Assembly (NCBI GenBank): GCA_964430355.1
Contig: CAYSFW010000089.1
Span: 81,750-145,749 of the forward strand
From: an uncultured Thiotrichales bacterium
Lineage (GTDB): Bacteria > Pseudomonadota > Gammaproteobacteria > UWMA-0217
Length of the DNA: 64,000 bases
Reading direction: 5' to 3'
Each line of letters starts with the position of its first letter. Within the stretch, counting starts at the first letter, position 1. The notes beneath the pieces were generated by a model. It worked only from the letters and a program-made list of their open reading frames with translations. It was not told the DNA's origin and did no database searches. A program made the translations under genes and the position numbers. Below are positions 43,179 to 50,765 of the stretch, piece by piece.

Positions 43179-43925
43179 TCAGCGCAGGGCGTAGTTCAGC
43201 GGTAACGTGAAGGTCCACTCGGAGCGGGCGATCTCCTGGGGGAACGGCAGCTTGCCGTCGATGCTGCGCACGGCCTCCAGCGCGGCGTGGTCGAGGATGT
43301 CGCTGCCGGACCCGGAGACGATACGCACGTCGCGGATGTCGCCGTTGCGGCGCAGCGTGAACTCGACCTCCACCTGCCCCTCCTGCCGCAGACGGCGTGC
43401 CTGGCCGGGGTAGTGCTTGTTGGCCTCGATGGCGCTGCGCAGCGCGGACTTGTACTCGAGCTCCGCATTGCGCACGCGGTCGGGGTCCACCGTGGGTGCC
43501 AGCTCGCGCGGCGGTGGCTCCGGCTCGCTGCGCGCTGGAACGGGCGGGCTGTGTTCGGGCTCCGCGAGGCGCGGCGCGGCTTGCTGCGCCGCGGCGAAAT
43601 CGGTCATCTGCGGCGGGGTGCGGAGCTTGGGTGGAGGTGCCTCCCGGCGCGGGGTGACCGGTTTCGGCTGGGGCCTGGGGGCTGGCTTCGCCAGCGGGGG
43701 CGACTGAGGGACGGTGGCGGGCGCAGATGCTACCGGCGGTGGAGCGGGTTGGACCGCGGGTGCTGGCGGCTGTGGGGCAAACATCGCCAGATTCAGCGGC
43801 AGCGCCTGCGCGGGCGGCGTCATCAGCTTCGGCACGTAGGCACCGATCGCCAGCGCGAACGCGAGGGCGCCGAGATGTACGAGCGCCGAGATGCCGAGGG
43901 CCGGGCCGTGTGTGCCCAGTCTCAT
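43179..43925 (-). CDS. tonB: Energy transducer TonB
   Basis: N-terminal TM anchor, a Pro-rich spacer (PxP repeats) and a C-terminal TonB domain (EGQVEVEFTLRRNGDIRDVRIVSGSGSDILD). Confidence 0.9.
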   Translation of the reverse strand: MRLGTHGPALGISALVHLGALAFALAIGAYVPKLMTPPAQALPLNLAMFAPQPPAPAVQPAPPPVASAPATVPQSPPLAKPAPRPQPKPVTPRREAPPPKLRTPPQMTDFAAAQQAAPRLAEPEHSPPVPARSEPEPPPRELAPTVDPDRVRNAELEYKSALRSAIEANKHYPGQARRLRQEGQVEVEFTLRRNGDIRDVRIVSGSGSDILDHAALEAVRSIDGKLPFPQEIARSEWTFTLPLNYALR

Positions 43926-44299
43926 GATCCGCCCTTGACCATGATCGAGAGCCGGTCGAGCCCGCGCGCTTTGAGCAGGTCGATCACGGTCACGAAACGC
44001 TCGAAGCGGGCTGCGCGATCGACGTAGAGCAAGATTTCCGTGCTGCGCTCCAGTGCGCTCAGGCGGGTGGCGAGCCCTTGGGGCTCGACGGCTTCACCCC
44101 GGTAGGTGTACTTGCCTTCCCCATCGATGGTGATCTCCACCGGGTCGCGCAGTTCGGTGCGCTCGGTGCTGTCGGCCTCCGGCAGATCCAGCGTGATCTT
44201 CTCCTGGGAGATGAACGTCGCCGTGGTCAGCACGATGGCCAGCAACACCAGCATGATGTCGATGAACGGGATGACGTTGACCTGGTCGAAGCGCTTCAT
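43922..44299 (-). CDS. exbD: Biopolymer transporter ExbD/TolR
   Basis: MKRFDQVNVIPFIDIMLVLLAIVL; operon with exbB and tonB. Confidence 0.9.
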   Translation of the reverse strand: MKRFDQVNVIPFIDIMLVLLAIVLTTATFISQEKITLDLPEADSTERTELRDPVEITIDGEGKYTYRGEAVEPQGLATRLSALERSTEILLYVDRAARFERFVTVIDLLKARGLDRLSIMVKGGS

Positions 44300-44727
44300 G
44301 CCGCGCGCCGCTCCCGCCAGCGTGCCGTGAGGACCTCGACGCGGCGCAACAGTGCGTTGTAGAACAGGATCGACGGTATCGCGACCACCAGCCCCATCGC
44401 CGTGGCCTTCAGCGCAAGCGCAAGGCCGAGCATGATCGCCGCCGGATCGATCCGGCCACCCTGCCCCAGATCGTAAAAGGTGATGAGGATGCCCAACACC
44501 GTGCCGAGCAGGCCGATGTAGGGCGCGTTGGCGCCGATCGAGGCGATGGTCGTCAAATGCGCGGTCAGGGCCACGTTGAGCGTGTCGGGGTGGGTGAACT
44601 CGTCGATGCGCACACGCGCGTAGAACAGATAGCGCTCGACGACGAGCCAGAGCATGACGAAGCTCATCAGCCCGAGAGTGCCGAAAACCGCGTAATCCAG
44701 GTATTGCTTCAACAGCTCCACGATCAA
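44296..44727 (-). CDS. exbB: MotA/TolQ/ExbB proton channel
   Basis: Three-TM ExbB-like protein with a GNAPYIGLLGTVLGI block. Confidence 0.9.
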   Translation of the reverse strand: MIVELLKQYLDYAVFGTLGLMSFVMLWLVVERYLFYARVRIDEFTHPDTLNVALTAHLTTIASIGANAPYIGLLGTVLGILITFYDLGQGGRIDPAAIMLGLALALKATAMGLVVAIPSILFYNALLRRVEVLTARWRERRAA

Positions 44728-44986
44728 TCCTCCGGTGGCCCAGGAAGCGGGGGCTTGCTCCGCGTCATTGTGGCCCGAGGCGTACGGGGTGCCACAACCG
44801 CATCGTCATTGTATCGACACAGCCCTTACACGGAAGTGGTGGCAGCGTCCTCGTCGCGAGGATGACATACCGGTACCATTCGCTGCGCCGGCGTTCATTT
44901 CATTCACAAGCATTCGGACGGAATGAAACGCGTGGTTGTGTTGCCCACTTTTCTCGTCACTGCGCCTCAAAAGGGAGTCGTCCGCC

Positions 44987-47224
44987 GTGTTTTCAGCGTT
45001 CCGGAAAGGAAGGGAGGAGGCTGAACGTCTCGCCCGTGCGCACGAGGCCGCCGTGGCCGAGCTTCGCGAGTTGAAGGCCAAGGTCGCAGCCATCGACCGC
45101 GCGACCGTGCGGGTGGAGTTCGACCTCGAAGGCCGGATCGTCGCGGCCAACGCGAATTTCCTTCAACTCTTCGGCTACGGCCGGGAGGCGCTGCGCAAGC
45201 TGCGTCACGCGGACCTCGCCCCTGCCGAGCACACTGCGGGTGCGGCGTACCGCGATTTCTGGAGCCGCCTGCGCCGCGGCGCGGTCGAAGCCGGCGAGTT
45301 TCCCCGCCTCGCGAGCGGCGGACGGGAACTCTGGTTGCGCGAAACCTACAGCCCCATCGTCGATGCGAGTGGCAAGCCCAGTCGGGTCCTCCTGCTGGCC
45401 TCCGACATCACAGACCAGAAGCTCGCCGCGCACTATGCCGAGGCGCAGGTCCGCGCAATCTCCAACGCACTGGCCGTGGTCGAGTTTTCGCTCGAAGGCG
45501 TCGTCGTGGATGCCAACCCCAATTTCCTCGCGATGTTCGGCTATACCCGCGAGGAGGTTTGTGGCCGGCATCATTCGATGTTCGTCGAGCCTGCTTTGCG
45601 CGAAAGCCTGGACTACAAGCAATTCTGGCACCAGCTCACGCGCGGGCGCCCCCAGGCCGGTGAGTTCAAGCGCATCGGCCAGGCGGGGCGCGAAATCTGG
45701 ATTCACGCGAGCTACAGCGCCGTGCTCGACATGCACGGGCACCCTTGCCGGATCGTCGAGCACGCCTCGGATATCACTGCGCAGAAACTCGAGGCGGCGA
45801 ATTTCCGCGGTCAGATCGCGGCGATCGACAAGTCGCAGGCCATCGTCGAGTTCGACCTGAGCGGACACGTCATCGCGGCGAATGAAAATTTCCTAGGAAC
45901 GCTCGGTTATTCGCTCGACGAGGTCCGTGGGCGGCATCACCGCATGTTTGTCGATGCGGCGTACGGCGATAGCGAGGCCTATCGAGAGTTCTGGGCGCGA
46001 CTGGCGCGTGGCGAGTTCGTGGCCGGCGAGTTTCGGCGGGTGGCGAAGGGCGGCCGTGAGGTCTGGATCCAGGCGAGCTACAACGCCATTCACGACCTCA
46101 ACGGGCGGCCTTTCAAGGTCGTTAAGTACGCCACGGACATCACACCGCAAAAGCGCTATCAGACCGTCGTGGAAGGTGCGCTGGCCGAGACCTCGCGGGT
46201 GCTGTCGAGCCTGGCAAACGGCAACCTGGACGAGCGGTGGCAGGGTGACGTCGAGCCCGCCTTCGCCGAGTTGCAGGCCAACCTCAACGCCTGCGCCCGT
46301 AACCTCGGCAAAGTGGTGAGCACCGTCAAAGTCGGCGCGGATCACATCGAGCACGCCGCCGATGAGATCGCGCACAGTATCCGGGAGCTCAGCGAGCGCA
46401 CCGAGCAGCAGGCGTCGTCCCTGCGTGAGTCCGCCGGACGGATGGATCAGCTAACCGACACGATCCGCCGTAACGCCGACAGCGCCGCGCGAGCCAGCGA
46501 AATCGCGCGCGAAGCCCGCGAGCAGGCCGTGCGCGGCGGGACCGTCGCCGGTACGACGATCGCCGCGGTGGCCGGCATCGCGGAGTCCAGCAAGAAGATC
46601 GCCGAGATCATCGGCGTGATCGACGGCATTGCTTTCCAGACCAACCTGCTCGCACTGAACGCCTCGGTGGAGGCGGCCCGGGCGGGCGTTCATGGTCGCG
46701 GCTTCGCGGTGGTCGCCGCTGAGGTGCGCCACTTGGCGCAGAGCAGCGCGGCTGCCGCACTCGAGATCAAGGCGCTGATCGAACAAAGTGGGCAGCGGGT
46801 GAACGAGGGGTCGCGGCTGGTCGAGGAGTCGGTCTCTACGCTGTCGAGCATCGTGAAGGCAATCTCCGACGTGAGCGAGCTCGTGGAGGACATCGCCGAT
46901 GCGAGCCGCGAGCAGTCGGTCGGTGTGCTGACGGTCAACAGTGCGATTGCCGCGCTCGACCAGGTGAACCAGCGCAATGTCGCCCTCGTTCACGAGTCCT
47001 CCCGCGCCAGCGCGGCCATGGCTGAGCAATCCCGAGAACTTACACGATTGATGACGTTTTTCGCCCGACGGGAGACCGATGCGGCGATGCCGAGCGTGGA
47101 GGCGGCCCCGCGGCTCGAACGGCGGTCCGCCTCACGCCCATGGAGCGGCGTGTCACAAGGCCAGCGTGCGGTGAATGATGGCGACGGTAGTGCTGCGTCG
47201 TGGGTTGGTCAGCGCGGGGGCTGA
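44987..47224 (+). CDS. Soluble methyl-accepting chemotaxis protein with four tandem PAS domains
   Basis: Four PAS repeats (…[16 protein letters not shown]…, …[18 protein letters not shown]…, …[18 protein letters not shown]…) followed by an MCP signalling domain. No TM segments. GTG start with AAGGGAG 9 nt upstream. Confidence 0.85.
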
Positions 47225-47258: not shown

Positions 47259-47807
47259 TCACGGCCTATCGTGCGACGCCGCCGAAGGTACCAAGGCCTT
47301 CTGAATCTGCATCATCCCGGGCAGATGGCGGGCCACGACGATAGTCCAGGCGCCAGGTGCGGGGGCGGTCTCGAGGGGTGTGCCCTGAACCAGCGCGTTC
47401 AACACCGGGCGCGGGTCGCATGGCCACGCGACGCGGTACTCGGCTTCATCGCCCAGCTTTGCGCGCAGCATCGCGTCCTCGAAGCGGGCGACGGCTGCCA
47501 CCAGTGGGTCCGGGTGGTCGTGCATCGCTGCGAGAAACCGGGAGCCGGTGATCTCAATAAAGTGCGCCGGGCCGGAGCGGCGCAGGTCCGCCGCCACGGT
47601 GGCTTCGAACAGGTCGAGGCGCTTAAGGAGCGCGGAGGTCAGCGGACAGTAGCGCTCGATGCGCCAGGCATGCCACCACGCGACGACCTCCCGCGCTACC
47701 TCGGCTTGCGCGGAGCGCGCGACCTCGCGAACGTGCGCATCGGCACTGCGTGGCTGCTCTCCTCTGAGCAGGGCCTTCATGCTCGCTTGGTACGCCGCAA
47801 GGTCCAT
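47259..47807 (-). CDS. DUF2063-like partner protein of the MNIO enzyme (putative substrate-recognition/accessory subunit)
   Basis: 182 aa; the ATG follows the DUF692 TGA by 2 nt (TGACCATG). A weak VAAVARFEDA block resembles the conserved ..VARLEWA.. of DUF2063/MbnC-like partners. The assignment is by context and weak motif only. Confidence 0.5.
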   Translation of the reverse strand: MDLAAYQASMKALLRGEQPRSADAHVREVARSAQAEVAREVVAWWHAWRIERYCPLTSALLKRLDLFEATVAADLRRSGPAHFIEITGSRFLAAMHDHPDPLVAAVARFEDAMLRAKLGDEAEYRVAWPCDPRPVLNALVQGTPLETAPAPGAWTIVVARHLPGMMQIQKALVPSAASHDRP

Positions 47808-47809
47808 GG

Positions 47810-48643
47810 TCAACCGAGCCGCTTGGCCAAGTCGGCGAGCTGCCCGGCGATGGCCTCCGCGCCGACGAACGGCACCGCCTCGGGCATGATTTCATAAGTG
47901 ACGGCCCGCAGGTCGGGGCAGCGCGGCCGGACGCGATCAAGCCATTCCAGCGTGGATGGCCGCAGCAGACGCGAGTGCACATCCAGCCAGTAGCCGTGGT
48001 GCTCCACGCCGCAGGCGACATGGATCTCGACGACGGATTGCAGGTCCAGCTCATCGAGAAAGGCATCGATGTCGAGACCCAGATTCGCCTGGTCGCATTC
48101 CAGGTTGAACAGATCCAGCAGCAGCCCGCAGCCGGTGCGCTCTGTCAGCGCGTTCAGGAACGCAGCCGGGGCGAGCGTGTTGGGAGGGTCTGGCAGCAAC
48201 GCCGCGACGTTCTCGATGAGAAACGGCCTCGGGAAGCGGCGCTGGATGCGCTCGATGCGCTCCGCCACCAAGGCGAGTGTTCCGGCATCGCGCGGCAGCG
48301 TGAGCATCGCCCCGAGAAACTCCCCGCCGACGGTCGTGTAGCCGAGGTGCTCGCTATGCCAGGTGACGTCGAGGTGCGTGAACAGGTGGTCGAGCAGCCG
48401 GAGGTAGTCTTCCGACAGGCCATCGTGCGAGCCGATCGACAACCCCACGCCATGCGCGATCAGTGGCCGCTCGGCTTGCAGCTCGCGCAGCTCCGCGACC
48501 ACGTCCGGATCCAGCCGGACGCCATCGGCGTCCCGCCGCGCGAAAATGTCAGGAGTGATCTCGATGTAATCGATGTGAGGAAGGACGCGGTGCAGCAGCG
48601 CCGCATCGCGTCCCGAGTAGGTGAACGCCAAACCCGCCGACAC
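47810..48643 (-). CDS. DUF692 / MNIO-family (MbnB/TglH-like multinuclear non-heme iron oxidative) enzyme
   Basis: TIM-barrel DUF692 hallmarks: IAHGVGLSIGS, WHSEHLGYTTVGG, FLIENVAALL, RTGCGLLLDLFNLE. GTG start. Confidence 0.8.
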   Translation of the reverse strand: MSAGLAFTYSGRDAALLHRVLPHIDYIEITPDIFARRDADGVRLDPDVVAELRELQAERPLIAHGVGLSIGSHDGLSEDYLRLLDHLFTHLDVTWHSEHLGYTTVGGEFLGAMLTLPRDAGTLALVAERIERIQRRFPRPFLIENVAALLPDPPNTLAPAAFLNALTERTGCGLLLDLFNLECDQANLGLDIDAFLDELDLQSVVEIHVACGVEHHGYWLDVHSRLLRPSTLEWLDRVRPRCPDLRAVTYEIMPEAVPFVGAEAIAGQLADLAKRLG

Positions 48644-48670
48644 GGGCCCAGCCCCGCCAGGCGGGCGCGA

Positions 48671-48934
48671 TCAGCGAATCACGGCGACGTCGGCAACGCC
48701 GGGAATATCCTTGAAACGCTCGAAGATGAGCCGGTCGCGCACGCGGAACCGCAGGTCGATGCCGCTCAGTCCGCAGGTCGTGCAGCCGTGCAGACCGATC
48801 ACGCGGTCCAGCAATTCGTGCAGGCTCTTCGCTGCGATACCCTCATCGACCGTCACAGCCACCGTCCCCGGACGCAGCTGCCCCAGACCCAGACTCGCCA
48901 CGGCGCGTGACTCCAGCGCTTTCTCGTCTGACAT
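48671..48934 (-). CDS. Small (87 aa) cytoplasmic CxxC protein, weakly NifU/Nfu-C-terminal-like; first gene of the MNIO operon (candidate substrate or Fe-delivery partner)
   Basis: Strong RBS (AAGGAG, 9 nt spacer) before the ATG at 48934. Contains HGCTTCGLSGIDLRFRVRDRLIFERFKDIPGVADV, reminiscent of the Nfu GxCxxC..TLK..GIE..L....PEV pattern. Stop lies 27 bp from the DUF692 start. Confidence 0.6.
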   Translation of the reverse strand: MSDEKALESRAVASLGLGQLRPGTVAVTVDEGIAAKSLHELLDRVIGLHGCTTCGLSGIDLRFRVRDRLIFERFKDIPGVADVAVIR

Positions 48935-49029
48935 AACCTTGCTCCTTGACGCTCGAAACCAAGTTGATTGGGCAAACCCCGCGCGGTCCGGCAGGCTGAA
49001 CGGGCCCACCGGCCCCTGCGCGTCTGGGT

Positions 49030-49063
49030 GGTATAGCAGAGGATTGTTAAATATCAATAACAA
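49030..49063 (-). promoter_or_regulatory. Putative sigma-70 promoter of the MNIO operon (-35 TTGATA, 16-nt spacer, -10 TATACC) embedded in a palindrome TTGTTA-N8-TAACAA
   Basis: Minus strand reads tcctcaaTTGTTATTGATATTTAACAAtcctctgcTATACC, ~95 nt upstream of the small-protein ATG. Confidence 0.4.
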
Positions 49064-49257
49064 TTGAGGACGCGGGCAGCGACCCCGACCCTACGCGAGG
49101 TGCAGTCTGGGCCCGATTGCCCCGACGCCTTGTCCTGGCGCTTTCGCGTCTCCTGTGCGGTTACGCCATCTGGCCCGGCGAACAGCTCGGCGAGTTGCGT
49201 CTTGGCCGAGCACCCCTCGCAATGCTTAGGGACCTGCTGATTAGTCCGTTCCCTCTC

Positions 49258-49352
49258 TGTCCCGCTTGCGGGGAAAGGGTTAGGGTGCGGGGTAATTTGC
49301 TGAATCATCGGTAGTTCTCCCTCACCCCCGCCCCTCTCCCAAAGGGATAAGG
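49258..49352. repeat. REP/MITE-like hairpin element, copy 2 (GGGGAAAGGGTTAGGGTGCGGGG ... CTCCCTCACCCCCGCCCCTCTCCCAAAGGG)
   Basis: Near-identical arms to the elements at 34149-34237 and 50666-50765. The G-rich and C-rich arms can pair. Confidence 0.7.
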
Positions 49353-49570
49353 AACTAAATCTGTGCTTCCGTAGCAAACACCCTGCTCGCTGCCCTGGAT
49401 TCGGGCCTGGCCCAACAGCCGTTGCGCGGAAACGTTGCATCAGCGGCTCGGCGGATTTGAAAGGCTAAGCGGTTGGGCGCGGCCAGCGGTGGGATGGACA
49501 GTCGAACCACGGCCGCGAGGCGATGGGATGGCCTCACCGCCCCGCGCGTGCCATCACGGATGAAGGGGTG

Positions 49571-50323
49571 TTAGCTTGACCGCCTGTTCCGCGGCCCGCT
49601 GCCTTCGACGTTGCCGCGTTCAAATCCGGAAGCGGCAATCCCGTCCACCTCCTGCTGGGGCAGAAGCTGCGCCTGATACGCCGTCCCCCGGCTTTCGATC
49701 TGTCCGACGAACGCACGCAGGTGATTGCGCGAACCTTTCAGCAAGTTCGCATACGCCATGGCCAACTGAGGTTGTCCGCCGGCCCCGTCGATAGACTGTT
49801 GCAGCCCCCGCATATCCAGTTCTTCAATGAAAGCGCCCACTTGCAACGCCTCCTGCGGAGACTGGGAACCGCGCTCCACCAGTTGCTGGTACAAGTCGGC
49901 CAGCTCCGGATTCGAGAATGCGCCTACGCTGTCATCCGTAACCGGGTCCGCAAGGCCGTACATCGCGAGTTGCCGGGCCATCGTATCCATGTGCTGCTGC
50001 TCCGACCTGGCGATATTGTCGAAAGATCGGATCCCCCATTGCTCACCCAGCGTCTTGTACACGTCGCGCGCCAGTTTCTCTTCCTCGCGGTTATATCTCA
50101 GGGTTTCCGCCTGCTCGGCGGTGAGTGGTGAAACGGCGTTGGAAGTGGGCGGATTGCCTTGCGTTGACTGGCTGCGAGCGGGGGTCGTACTACCGGTCTG
50201 CCATTGTTGGAGCAGCTTGTTGACGAGCGGCGCCAACTGCTGGAAACGCGGGCTGCTGGATAGGGTCTGCTGGAACCTGCACTGGCTGCCTTGTCGCGCT
50301 GCCCGGTGCGCATCCGCCGCCAT
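49571..50323 (-). CDS. DUF2202 ferritin-like domain protein
   Basis: Core LTAEQAETLRYNREEEKLARDVYKTLGEQWGIRSFDNIARSEQQHMDTMARQL...YANLLKGSRNHLRAF matches the DUF2202 family. The N-terminal ~65 aa are Q-rich with no signal peptide, so the start is uncertain. Confidence 0.65.
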   Translation of the reverse strand: MAADAHRAARQGSQCRFQQTLSSSPRFQQLAPLVNKLLQQWQTGSTTPARSQSTQGNPPTSNAVSPLTAEQAETLRYNREEEKLARDVYKTLGEQWGIRSFDNIARSEQQHMDTMARQLAMYGLADPVTDDSVGAFSNPELADLYQQLVERGSQSPQEALQVGAFIEELDMRGLQQSIDGAGGQPQLAMAYANLLKGSRNHLRAFVGQIESRGTAYQAQLLPQQEVDGIAASGFERGNVEGSGPRNRRSS

Positions 50324-50665: not shown

Positions 50666-50765
50666 CAAGCGGGGAGAGCGTTACGGTGAGGACGTAACTC
50701 GCTGACTCAATTTCGCTTCTCCCTCACCTCTGCACCTCTCTCGAAAGGAGGCGGGATTCGATCAG
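50666..50765. repeat. REP/MITE-like hairpin element, copy 3 (GCGGGGAGAGCGTTACGGTGAGGACG ... TTCTCCCTCACCTCTGCACCTCTCTCGAAAGGAGGCGGG)
   Basis: Copy 3, immediately downstream of the pyrE stop; same family as copies 1 and 2. Confidence 0.65.

What the first reader, a model, noticed from the sequence alone, without database searches (positions are those of the whole stretch)
47259..49065. MNIO (DUF692) enzyme + DUF2063-like partner operon headed by a cytoplasmic NifU-like CxxC mini-protein instead of a canonical RiPP precursor
The DUF692 protein carries the conserved blocks of MbnB/TglH-type multinuclear non-heme iron oxidases. It is translationally coupled (TGACCATG) to a 182-aa DUF2063-like partner. 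That pairing installs thiooxazole/thioamide-type chemistry on Cys-containing peptides in methanobactin, 3-thiaglutamate and bufferin-type systems. Here the only gene upstream in the operon (27-bp gap, strong AAGGAG RBS, own promoter) is an 87-aa protein with no signal peptide, a single HGCTTCG CxxC motif and an Nfu/NifU-C-like tail. No MbnA/TglA/DUF2282-like precursor, exporter or DoxX gene is present. So either this is an MNIO system with a new kind of substrate (the CxxC pair would be the modified residues), or an Fe-S-scaffold-like protein is dedicated to loading the MNIO metal site. I do not recognise either arrangement as described.
Basis: partly seen in the sequence, partly recalled or inferred. 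Interest (0 to 1): 0.85.

Follow-up and report, generated by a model that had tools for sequence, protein, structure and literature searches.

The report
MNIO enzyme cassette modifying CxxC protein
This is a real three-gene operon in which an iron-dependent oxidase (MNIO) and its helper protein most likely modify the cysteines of a small folded 87-residue protein. The arrangement is widespread in soil bacteria and was catalogued by computer in 2025, but its chemistry and function have never been tested.

Summary
On the minus strand lie an 87-aa gene (48671-48934), a 277-aa MNIO (47810-48643; Pfam PF05114, E 1.6e-49) and a 182-aa partner (47259-47807). The AAGGAG site, the 27-nt gap and the TGAccATG junction are all as described.

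The interpretation needs correction in three places:
- The small protein is not NifU-like. It has no Pfam, NCBIfam or fold match.
- The partner fails the Pfam DUF2063 model. Its predicted fold matches only TglI, so it is a "PME-type 2" partner.
- The arrangement is not undescribed. It is homologous to the "adjamnio-1" putative-precursor family of Antoine et al. 2025, whose representative genome (Massilia sp. CF038) was recovered here.

The triad is conserved across about ten phyla with no other conserved neighbour. The small family has an invariant G-C-x(1-2)-C-G loop. CxxC and CxC subtypes exist, and the MNIO tree separates them exactly. Small-gene copies are duplicated in one genome. Some relatives carry twin-arginine signals and tandem domains.

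Most likely the small protein is the MNIO substrate, modified at Cys51 and Cys54, probably to thiooxazole-type metal ligands, and stays in the cytoplasm. It is a new member of a catalogued but biochemically uncharacterised kind.

The parts
48671..48934 (-). Gene for the 87-aa small protein (MSDEKALESR...VAVIR), the putative MNIO substrate. It belongs to the CxxC subtype of the adjamnio-1-like family.
   Evidence: ORF and sequence. The same 87-aa call appears on two other assemblies. 101 family representatives at E<=1e-3, 99 of them carrying C-x2-C-G. AF2 model pLDDT 84: beta-alpha-[GCxxCG loop]-beta-alpha.
48770..48787 (-). Codons for G50-C51-T52-T53-C54-G55, the invariant G-C-x-x-C-G loop and proposed modification site.
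   Evidence: G50, C51, C54 and G55 are the only invariant columns in 56 relatives. The Cys-Gly dyad is kept in all 78 genome homologues, including the one with a single Cys.
48942..48947 (-). Shine-Dalgarno AAGGAG, 7 nt upstream of the small gene's ATG.
   Evidence: Read directly from the sequence.
47810..48643 (-). Gene for the 277-aa MNIO (DUF692) enzyme, GTG start, 27 nt after the small gene's stop.
   Evidence: Pfam PF05114 E 1.6e-49. Best NCBIfam matches are BufB (148 bits) and HvfB (108 bits), both below their equivalog cutoffs. PDB relatives: 3BWW, TglH, MbnB. H64, H99, E144, D177, N180, H208, D221, H223 and E251 are invariant in 30 relatives.
47259..47807 (-). Gene for the 182-aa partner protein (PME-type 2, TglI-like). 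Its ATG lies 2 nt after the MNIO stop (TGAccATG).
   Evidence: No Pfam or NCBIfam hit. AF2 model pLDDT 90.6: seven helices followed by a small beta-alpha-beta-beta unit. The only real Foldseek PDB hit is 8hci_A, TglI (prob 1.00, TMq 0.54). A homologue lies downstream of the MNIO in 78 of 78 genomes.
49043..49064 (-). AT-rich island with a 7-bp inverted repeat (ATTGTTA-N8-TAACAAT), about 110-130 nt upstream of the small gene's ATG. It overlaps a weak TTGATA-N16-TATACC promoter-like pair. It is a possible promoter or operator, unverified.
   Evidence: Read from the sequence. The consensus promoter scan reported no site. No similar element was seen by eye upstream of the closest homologous operon, L003.

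Best explanation
This is a minimal, self-contained protein-modification cassette. The 87-aa protein is the substrate. The MNIO (277 aa) forms a complex with its TglI-like partner (182 aa), which recruits the small protein. The multi-iron site then uses O2 to oxidise the thiol-bearing residues of the invariant G-C-x-x-C-G loop: certainly the Cys54-Gly55 dyad and probably Cys51 as well.

The most likely product is a Cys-derived 5-thiooxazole-type heterocycle (a 4-electron oxidation, -4 Da per Cys). This would create a soft-metal (copper-type) N,S binding site displayed on a small beta-alpha-beta domain. There is no signal peptide, leader-protease or exporter, so the modified protein stays intact in the cytoplasm. 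Relatives with twin-arginine signals are exported already folded.

Shown: gene content, homology, conservation, linkage and co-diversification. Inferred: complex formation, substrate role, chemistry and metal-binding function.
For: 1. Obligate linkage in both directions. The small-family homologue sits immediately upstream, same strand, in 72 of 78 species genomes, and the partner sits downstream in 78 of 78. Searching metagenomes with patterns from the sister CxC small protein alone found the MNIO immediately downstream in 74 of 74 evaluable loci.
2. The gene order small-MNIO-partner matches bufABC, where the first gene is the substrate (PMC12452194).
3. No other gene is conserved around the triad across about ten phyla, so no other linked substrate exists.
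4. The only invariant residues of the small family are G-C...C-G.
5. Cys spacing changes (43 CxxC, 34 CxC, 1 single Cys that keeps the Cys-Gly). This fits individually modified cysteines better than a redox or metal CxxC knuckle.
6. Co-diversification: all 34 MNIOs paired with CxC proteins form one pure clade.
7. One genome carries two full copies plus a fragment of the small gene before a single MNIO (L044), as is common for RiPP precursors.
8. The partner has the fold of TglI, the substrate-recruiting subunit of TglHI.
9. The nearest named MNIO models are BufB and HvfB. Both install 5-thiooxazoles, and FonB prefers a small residue after Cys (PMC13097082). Here Cys54 is always followed by Gly.
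10. All nine Fe-ligand positions are intact.
11. 7 of 101 family representatives carry twin-arginine signals, consistent with folding or modification before export. Of the four whose contigs were examined, the two tandem-domain ones are followed by the same MNIO.
Against: - There is no experimental evidence for any member. The family is only catalogued as 'putative precursors'.
- The small protein is predicted to be well folded (pLDDT 84), whereas known MNIO substrates are mostly flexible peptides. How the loop reaches the buried iron site is unexplained.
- BufB and HvfB scores are far below their equivalog cutoffs (148 vs 310; 108 vs 360), and the C-terminal ~35 residues do not align to BufB. 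The chemistry could therefore differ.
- Two MNIO loci lack a detectable small gene (L068, L079) and two have it after the partner (L083, L084).
- Two single-domain Tat-signal homologues are not next to an MNIO on their short contigs.
- Nothing in the neighbourhood points to copper or any specific metal.
Confidence: 0.55

Rival explanations
1. The small protein is the substrate, but the chemistry is not thiooxazole formation. Alternatives include oxazolone/thioamide as in MbnBC, beta-carbon excision as in TglHI, a Cys-Cys or Cys-backbone cross-link, or a new protein-derived redox cofactor.
For: The MNIO lies well outside the BufB and HvfB equivalog cutoffs and is only distantly related to every solved MNIO (E 3.5e-16 at best). 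Small outlying MNIO groups have repeatedly shown new chemistry (PMC12452194 discussion). The partner resembles TglI rather than the DUF2063 partner of thiooxazole-forming enzymes. Two cysteines 1-2 residues apart could react together.
Against: The best-scoring named models are still the thiooxazole-forming BufB and HvfB, not MbnB, ChrH or ApyH. The invariant Cys-Gly dyad fits the reported preference of 5TO-forming FonB. One homologue has a single Cys, which argues against an obligatory Cys-Cys link.
Confidence: 0.22
2. The small protein is an accessory factor, not the substrate. It could be a dithiol reductant, an iron or sulfur donor, or a chaperone. The true substrate would then be encoded elsewhere or be a non-peptide molecule.
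Against: There is no NifU, Nfu or thioredoxin signal in sequence or fold, for it or for 56 relatives. Cys spacing is not conserved and one member has a single Cys. Other MNIO systems need no such factor. The gene occupies the substrate slot and is duplicated in L044. Tat-exported tandem versions make no sense for a cytoplasmic loader. No other conserved gene could supply a substrate.
Confidence: 0.12
3. It is a classical RiPP precursor. An N-terminal leader is recognised, the Cys-containing core is modified, and a peptide is then cleaved off and exported by unlinked housekeeping functions.
For: The variable, lower-confidence N-terminal ~22 residues could act as a leader. RiPP logic applies to most known MNIO systems.
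Against: The cysteines sit in the middle of a confidently folded domain, and conserved structure continues for 30 residues after them. No protease or transporter is conserved near the triad in any phylum. Tandem-domain and Tat-signal versions imply that the whole domain is the product.
Confidence: 0.06

Closest known systems
adjamnio-1 (and possibly adjamnio-7) putative precursors with MNIO and PME-type 2 partner (Antoine et al., Microb Genom 2025, PMC12452194)
   Same: A signal-peptide-less, structured small protein with a Cys motif is encoded immediately before an outlying MNIO and followed by a non-DUF2063, TglI/NGO1945-like partner. The representative genome for adjamnio-1, Massilia sp. 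CF038, was recovered with an MNIO 52% identical to this one (L014). Its upstream small protein is homologous to this family (HMM E 1.4e-12; profile-profile probability 99.2%, E 3e-19).
   Different: The Massilia-type proteins carry GGCNCGLTGFD (CxC); this one carries HGCTTCGLSGID (CxxC). The two MNIO groups are separate clades. A CxxC motif is what the paper reports for adjamnio-7 (Novilysobacter spongiicola). I could not obtain that sequence, the authors' HMMs or their SSN cluster lists, so assignment to cluster 1 or cluster 7 is open. The paper gives no chemistry or function.
Bufferins/captophorins: BufABC, FonABC, HvfABC (PMC11626156, PMC13097082)
   Same: The gene order is substrate-MNIO-partner. 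The nearest named MNIO models are BufB and HvfB. Cys is the conserved target, with a small residue after it. Some substrates are protein-sized.
   Different: Those substrates have Sec signal peptides and are periplasmic. Their partners are bona fide DUF2063-RRE proteins (PME-type 1), and DoxX, sigma and anti-sigma genes are common. Here there is no signal peptide, the partner fails DUF2063, no DoxX is present, and the BufB score is less than half the equivalog cutoff.
TglHI acting on TglA-Cys (3-thiaglutamate/pearlin pathway; PDB 8HCI/8HI7)
   Same: The partner's predicted fold matches TglI and nothing else in the PDB. TglH is the second-closest solved MNIO (E 1.2e-12). The substrate is cytoplasmic and lacks a signal peptide.
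   Different: There is no PEARL (TglB) enzyme. The target Cys residues are internal rather than a C-terminally appended Cys. The partner is 182 aa versus 268 aa, with a truncated C-terminal domain.
MbnABC (methanobactin)
   Same: An MNIO plus partner modifies Cys. All nine MbnB-type metal-ligand positions align (ligand identities from my knowledge of the MbnB structures).
   Different: The similarity is very distant (E 6.6e-5; 42 bits against a 325-bit cutoff). There is no MbnC, no short MbnA-type peptide and no export or uptake genes.
NifU/Nfu C-terminal domain
   Same: Only a CxxC pair in a small alpha/beta protein.
   Different: No HMM or fold match. The best is a 13-bit, E 0.067 hit of one relative to NfuA.

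Membership tests
MNIO / DUF692 (Pfam PF05114 MbnB_TglH_ChrH) | Sequence matches the family HMM above the gathering score | tested here: met
   168.9 bits against a cutoff of 25, E 1.6e-49, residues 19-242.
MNIO / DUF692 (Pfam PF05114 MbnB_TglH_ChrH) | Conserved His/Glu/Asp/Asn ligands of the di- or tri-iron site | tested here: met
   H64, H99, E144, D177, N180, H208, D221, H223 and E251 are invariant in 30 relatives. H99, E144, D177, N180, H208, D221, H223 and E251 align residue-for-residue with MbnB in the 7TCR alignment, which starts at residue 94. H64 is matched only by spacing from recalled MbnB numbering (ligand identities from memory of the MbnB structures).
MNIO / DUF692 (Pfam PF05114 MbnB_TglH_ChrH) | Iron- and O2-dependent oxidation of a peptide or protein substrate | not testable with these tools
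   Requires biochemistry.
PME-type 1 partner (Pfam DUF2063, PF09836) | Matches the DUF2063 HMM | tested here: not met
   No hit at E<=1 for this protein. Only 2 of 28 family members hit, best E 6.6e-5. A profile search of the PDB does not find 3DEE.
PME-type 2 partner (Antoine et al. 2025) | Encoded directly after the MNIO gene and lacking the DUF2063 signature | tested here: met
   TGAccATG junction. No DUF2063 hit. The downstream position is conserved in 78 of 78 genomes.
PME-type 2 partner (Antoine et al. 2025) | Structural relation to TglI (8HI7/8HCI) or NGO1945 (3DEE): helical N-domain with or without a truncated RRE-like domain | tested here: met
   AF2 model pLDDT 90.6. Foldseek top hit 8hci_A (TglI): prob 1.00, E 6.6e-3, TMq 0.54; the next hit has E 2. 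3DEE was not recovered.
adjamnio-1 putative precursor family (Antoine et al. 2025) | Homology to the small protein encoded before the cluster-1 MNIO of Massilia sp. CF038 (WP_073215760) | tested here: met
   In locus L014 of Massilia sp. CF038, the upstream ORF hits the small-family HMM at E 1.4e-12. Profile-profile probability is 99.2%. That this ORF is WP_073215760 is inferred, because the accession could not be looked up.
adjamnio-1 putative precursor family (Antoine et al. 2025) | No Sec signal peptide, a conserved Cys motif, and a PME-type 2 partner | tested here: met
   The N-terminus MSDEKALESR... has no n-region or h-region (by inspection; no predictor was run). The GCxxCG loop is invariant. 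The partner is as described above.
adjamnio-1 putative precursor family (Antoine et al. 2025) | The associated MNIO belongs to SSN cluster 1 of that study, or the protein matches the authors' HMM | not testable with these tools
   The SSN lists, the Fig. S3 alignments and the HMMs are not in the held supplements. Here the CxC and CxxC MNIOs form separate clades, so this one may fall in cluster 7 (adjamnio-7, CxxC) instead.
Bufferin/captophorin system (BufABC) | MNIO reaches the BufB (NF050167) or HvfB (NF003818) equivalog cutoff | tested here: not met
   148 bits against 310; 108 bits against 360.
Bufferin/captophorin system (BufABC) | Sec-signal, Cys-rich precursor (DUF2282, Buf_6/12Cys or EGKCG repeats) | tested here: not met
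   No Pfam or NCBIfam hit. There are two Cys only, and no signal peptide by inspection.
NifU/Nfu Fe-S scaffold domain | Matches the NifU or NfuA HMMs, or has the Nfu fold | tested here: not met

The most novel reading that the evidence does not exclude
The family could be a new class of MNIO products: not secreted peptides, but intact, folded beta-alpha-beta proteins carrying a Cys-derived heterocycle as a protein-derived cofactor. They would work inside the cytoplasm, for example as a copper or soft-metal buffer or a redox cofactor carrier. Tat-exported, tandem-domain versions would do the same job outside the cell. The CxxC-to-CxC switch, mirrored exactly in the enzyme tree, would then be a natural experiment in how MNIOs read their substrate.
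Probability: 0.3. Interest if true: 0.75.

Novelty: new member of a known kind. Interest (0 to 1): 0.45.

Why it matters
MNIOs are among the largest enzyme families in peptide natural-product biosynthesis, but nearly all characterised substrates are short or secreted peptides. This cassette is a clean three-gene system whose substrate appears to be a folded cytoplasmic protein with just two cysteines. That makes it an unusually tractable case for three questions: whether MNIOs modify folded proteins, what chemistry an outlying MNIO clade with a TglI-like partner performs, and what a cytoplasmic thiooxazole-type protein would be for.

The comparative data gathered here give concrete mutational and phylogenetic handles that the 2025 catalogue does not report:
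- the invariant Cys-Gly dyad;
- CxxC and CxC subtypes that co-diversify with the enzyme;
- duplicated substrate genes;
- Tat-signal and tandem-domain relatives.

Tried and rejected
- **Word-index search with the small protein.** It found only the protein itself. The exhaustive phmmer search was needed.
- **The search for related loci with small-protein alignments A1 and A2.** Both failed because no stretch was conserved enough. I switched to the MNIO alignment A3 and, for the converse test, to the CxC-subtype alignment A6. The converse linkage is therefore shown systematically only for the sister subtype.
- **Profile search of the PDB with the partner family.** It gave only spurious protein-A repeat hits.
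- **afdb50 fold library.** It was not available.
- **Supplements of PMC12452194.** They hold neither the adjamnio sequences nor the accessions. Membership in cluster 1 versus cluster 7 stays open, and Novilysobacter spongiicola was not among the 80 loci kept.
- **Promoter scan.** It found no sigma-70 consensus site, and the one terminator-like site lies inside the partner gene, at chance level.
- **Rfam and tRNA scans of the window.** Nothing was found.
- **Other checks.** There is no second MNIO, small-protein or partner copy in the window. Base composition gives no sign of foreign origin: operon 67% GC versus window 66%.
- **A pearlin-type scaffold was considered and rejected.** There is no PEARL enzyme and the cysteines are internal.
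Full report
**1. What is in the sequence**

The region holds three co-directional genes on the minus strand.
- The first gene (48671..48934) encodes an 87-aa protein, MSDEKALESRAVASLGLGQLRPGTVAVTVDEGIAAKSLHELLDRVIGLHGCTTCGLSGIDLRFRVRDRLIFERFKDIPGVADVAVIR. An AAGGAG site lies 7 nt before its ATG.
- After a 27-nt gap comes a 277-aa ORF with a GTG start (47810..48643).
- Its TGA stop is followed by CC and then the ATG of a 182-aa ORF (47259..47807). An alternative TTG start overlaps the stop.

Two independent assemblies carry the identical locus with the same 87/277/182-aa gene calls. Downstream, a PAS-domain chemoreceptor gene converges on the operon. Upstream on the same strand lie a REP-like palindrome and a DUF2202 gene. 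The window holds no second copy of any of the three genes. Operon GC (67%) equals window GC (66%). Only the "own promoter" is unverified: the consensus scan found none.

**2. The enzyme**

The 277-aa protein is an unambiguous MNIO (Pfam PF05114, 168.9 bits against a cutoff of 25). It is not an equivalog of any named subfamily:

| NCBIfam model | Score (bits) | Cutoff (bits) |
|---|---|---|
| BufB | 148 | 310 |
| HvfB | 108 | 360 |
| ApyH | 85 | 400 |
| ChrH | 47 | 600 |
| MbnB | 42 | 325 |

Against solved structures it is closest to 3BWW (E 3.5e-16), then TglH (1.2e-12), then MbnB (6.6e-5). In an alignment of 30 relatives, H64, H99, E144, D177, N180, H208, D221, H223 and E251 are invariant. 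From H99 onward these positions align with the iron ligands of MbnB in the 7TCR alignment. H64 lies N-terminal of that alignment and is matched only by its spacing. The ligand identities come from my knowledge of the MbnB structures.

**3. The partner**

The 182-aa protein has no Pfam or NCBIfam hit. The protein does belong to a well-conserved family found after the MNIO in 78 of 78 evaluable genomes. Two of 28 members hit DUF2063 weakly, best E 6.6e-5. An AlphaFold2 model built on 19 homologues is confident (pLDDT 90.6). It shows seven helices followed by a small beta-alpha-beta-beta unit. Its only meaningful PDB neighbour is chain A of 8HCI, the TglI subunit of the TglHI holoenzyme (prob 1.00, E 6.6e-3, TMq 0.54); the next hit has E 2. 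This is exactly how Antoine et al. define "PME-type 2" partners.

**4. The small protein**

It has no Pfam or NCBIfam match. A word-index search found only the protein itself. An exhaustive phmmer search of 1.84 billion representatives found 101 relatives (E<=1e-3). Most are 72-90 aa, and 99 carry C-x2-C-G. In 56 aligned relatives the only invariant columns are G50, C51, C54 and G55, with G58 and D60 nearly invariant.

**5. Conservation of the cassette**

I scanned one genome per species (GTDB) with patterns from the MNIO alignment. This gave 154 relatives, of which the best 80 were kept (41-56% identity). They come from:
- Acidobacteriota;
- Actinomycetota, including Streptomyces and Kitasatospora;
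- Oxalobacteraceae (Massilia, Duganella, Pseudoduganella), Ramlibacter and Caulobacterales;
- Bacteroidota, Ignavibacteria and Verrucomicrobiota;
- Eremiobacterota, Chloroflexota, Gemmatimonadota and Binatia.

An HMM of the small family finds a homologue immediately upstream on the same strand in 72 of 78 evaluable loci. Of the other six, two are weak or truncated, two lie after the partner and two show no homologue. No other gene family is conserved around the triad outside the closely related Oxalobacteraceae. In one Eremiobacterota genome (L044), two near-identical small genes plus a fragment precede a single MNIO.

**6. Two subtypes that track the enzyme**

Of 78 small proteins, 43 are C-x-x-C and 34 are C-x-C, the latter always GGCNCGLTGFD. 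One has lost the first Cys but keeps the Cys-Gly. The two subtypes are homologous (hhalign probability 99.2%, E 3e-19 over 71 columns). In a neighbour-joining tree of the MNIOs, all 34 enzymes paired with CxC proteins form one pure clade.

For the converse test I searched metagenomes with patterns taken only from the CxC small protein. This gave 80 loci. In all 74 with enough downstream sequence the MNIO follows immediately. For the CxxC subtype I could check only a handful of loci, and all were linked.

**7. Exported relatives**

Seven of the 101 representatives have N-terminal extensions with canonical twin-arginine motifs, such as DRRSFLKGAAAG and KRREFLKATGAA. Three representatives contain two copies of the domain. 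Two tandem Tat-signal proteins are followed by an MNIO of this family. Two single-domain ones are not, on contigs of about 2 kb. Tat exports folded proteins, which fits modification of a folded domain before export. The protein in this window has no signal of either kind (by inspection).

**8. Relation to what is known**

Antoine et al. (Microb Genom 2025, PMC12452194) surveyed MNIO neighbourhoods. They named "adjamnio-1", "-2" and "-7": signal-peptide-less proteins with Cys motifs, encoded before outlying MNIO clusters whose partners are PME-type 2. The representatives are Massilia sp. CF038 for adjamnio-1 and Novilysobacter spongiicola for adjamnio-7, which is described as having a CxxC motif.

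Massilia sp. CF038 is locus L014 in my scan. Its MNIO is 52% identical to this one, and its upstream ORF is a CxC-type member of the same family. The arrangement is therefore already catalogued, though only in silico. A search for "adjamnio" returns that paper alone, and recent MNIO papers characterise other subfamilies. The authors' alignments and HMMs are not in the held supplements, so I could not tell whether this CxxC protein falls in their cluster 1 or cluster 7.

**9. Most likely mechanism**

The small protein is the substrate. The arguments are these:
- Linkage is obligate in both directions.
- The gene occupies the substrate slot of the bufABC-type order.
- No other conserved neighbour exists.
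- Invariance is confined to the G-C...C-G loop.
- The Cys spacing changes together with the enzyme clade.
- The small gene is duplicated before a single enzyme in one genome.
- The partner has the fold of a substrate-recruiting subunit.

The chemistry is inferred. The nearest named MNIOs (BufB, HvfB) make 5-thiooxazoles, and FonB prefers a small residue after Cys. Here Cys54 is always followed by Gly. I therefore favour thiooxazole-type modification giving a soft-metal site on an intact cytoplasmic protein. Overall confidence is about 0.55 for the substrate model and lower for the specific chemistry.

The rivals are different Cys chemistry on the same substrate (0.22), an accessory redox or metal-donor role (0.12) and a cleaved, exported classical RiPP (0.06). 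Nothing nearby indicates which metal or stress is involved.

**10. Verdict**

The finding is real, conserved and correctly described anatomically. It is wrong on the NifU likeness, on the DUF2063 HMM membership and on the claim that the arrangement is undescribed. It is a new member (CxxC subtype) of a catalogued but biochemically uncharacterised kind. Interest is moderate. A specialist would not be surprised that it exists, but the chemistry, the folded-protein substrate and the cytoplasmic function are open and directly testable with three genes.

Noticed in passing
window 49250-49345 (minus strand) and 50721-50740: A G-rich imperfect palindrome (…GGGAGAGGGGCGGGGGTGAGGG…CCCGCACCCTAACCC…) lies between the DUF2202 gene and the operon. 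A second, 3-mismatch copy of its 20-mer lies about 1.4 kb away. As RNA it folds better than shuffles (z = -2.9). It looks like a REP-type intergenic repeat. The 84-aa gene called over it in other assemblies (and the 128-aa ORF 49054-49440) is probably spurious.
   Followed up: partly
window 49043-49064 (minus strand): A 23-nt AT-rich island in a 66% GC genome carries a 7-bp inverted repeat, ATTGTTA-N8-TAACAAT. It overlaps a weak TTGATA-N16-TATACC pair about 100 nt upstream of the small gene. It may be an operator or promoter. It was not picked up by the consensus scan, and no similar element was seen by eye upstream of the closest homologous operon (L003).
   Followed up: partly
L044 3109-3938 (Candidatus Tumulicola MAG): Two near-identical 84-aa copies of the small gene plus a 47-aa fragment lie in tandem before a single MNIO.
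   Followed up: partly
P0145 (L088), P0179 (L091), P0213; P0176, P0202, P0203, P0211, P0218: Some relatives of the small protein carry twin-arginine signal peptides, two tandem copies of the domain, or both. The two tandem ones examined are followed by the same MNIO family. Two single-domain ones are not, on short contigs.
   Followed up: partly
L083 and L084 (Bacteroidota / Ignavibacteria MAGs): In these two loci the small-protein homologue lies after the partner gene rather than before the MNIO. It has a divergent YACTGCGF / YGCLACGF loop.
   Followed up: no
P0127 (260 aa, metagenome): A predicted protein joins the C-terminal two-thirds of a small-protein homologue directly to the middle of an MNIO (…QDVAWHSEHLGF…). 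It is probably an assembly or deletion artefact rather than a natural fusion.
   Followed up: no
window 49571-50323 (minus strand): A 250-aa DUF2202 (ferritin-like) protein gene lies upstream on the same strand as the operon. It is not conserved next to the triad in other genomes, so it is probably unrelated.
   Followed up: partly
window 43922-47224: ExbB-ExbD(-TonB) genes and a 745-762-aa chemoreceptor with several PAS domains flank the operon on its 3' side. The chemoreceptor converges on the partner gene with a 34-nt intergenic gap.
   Followed up: no
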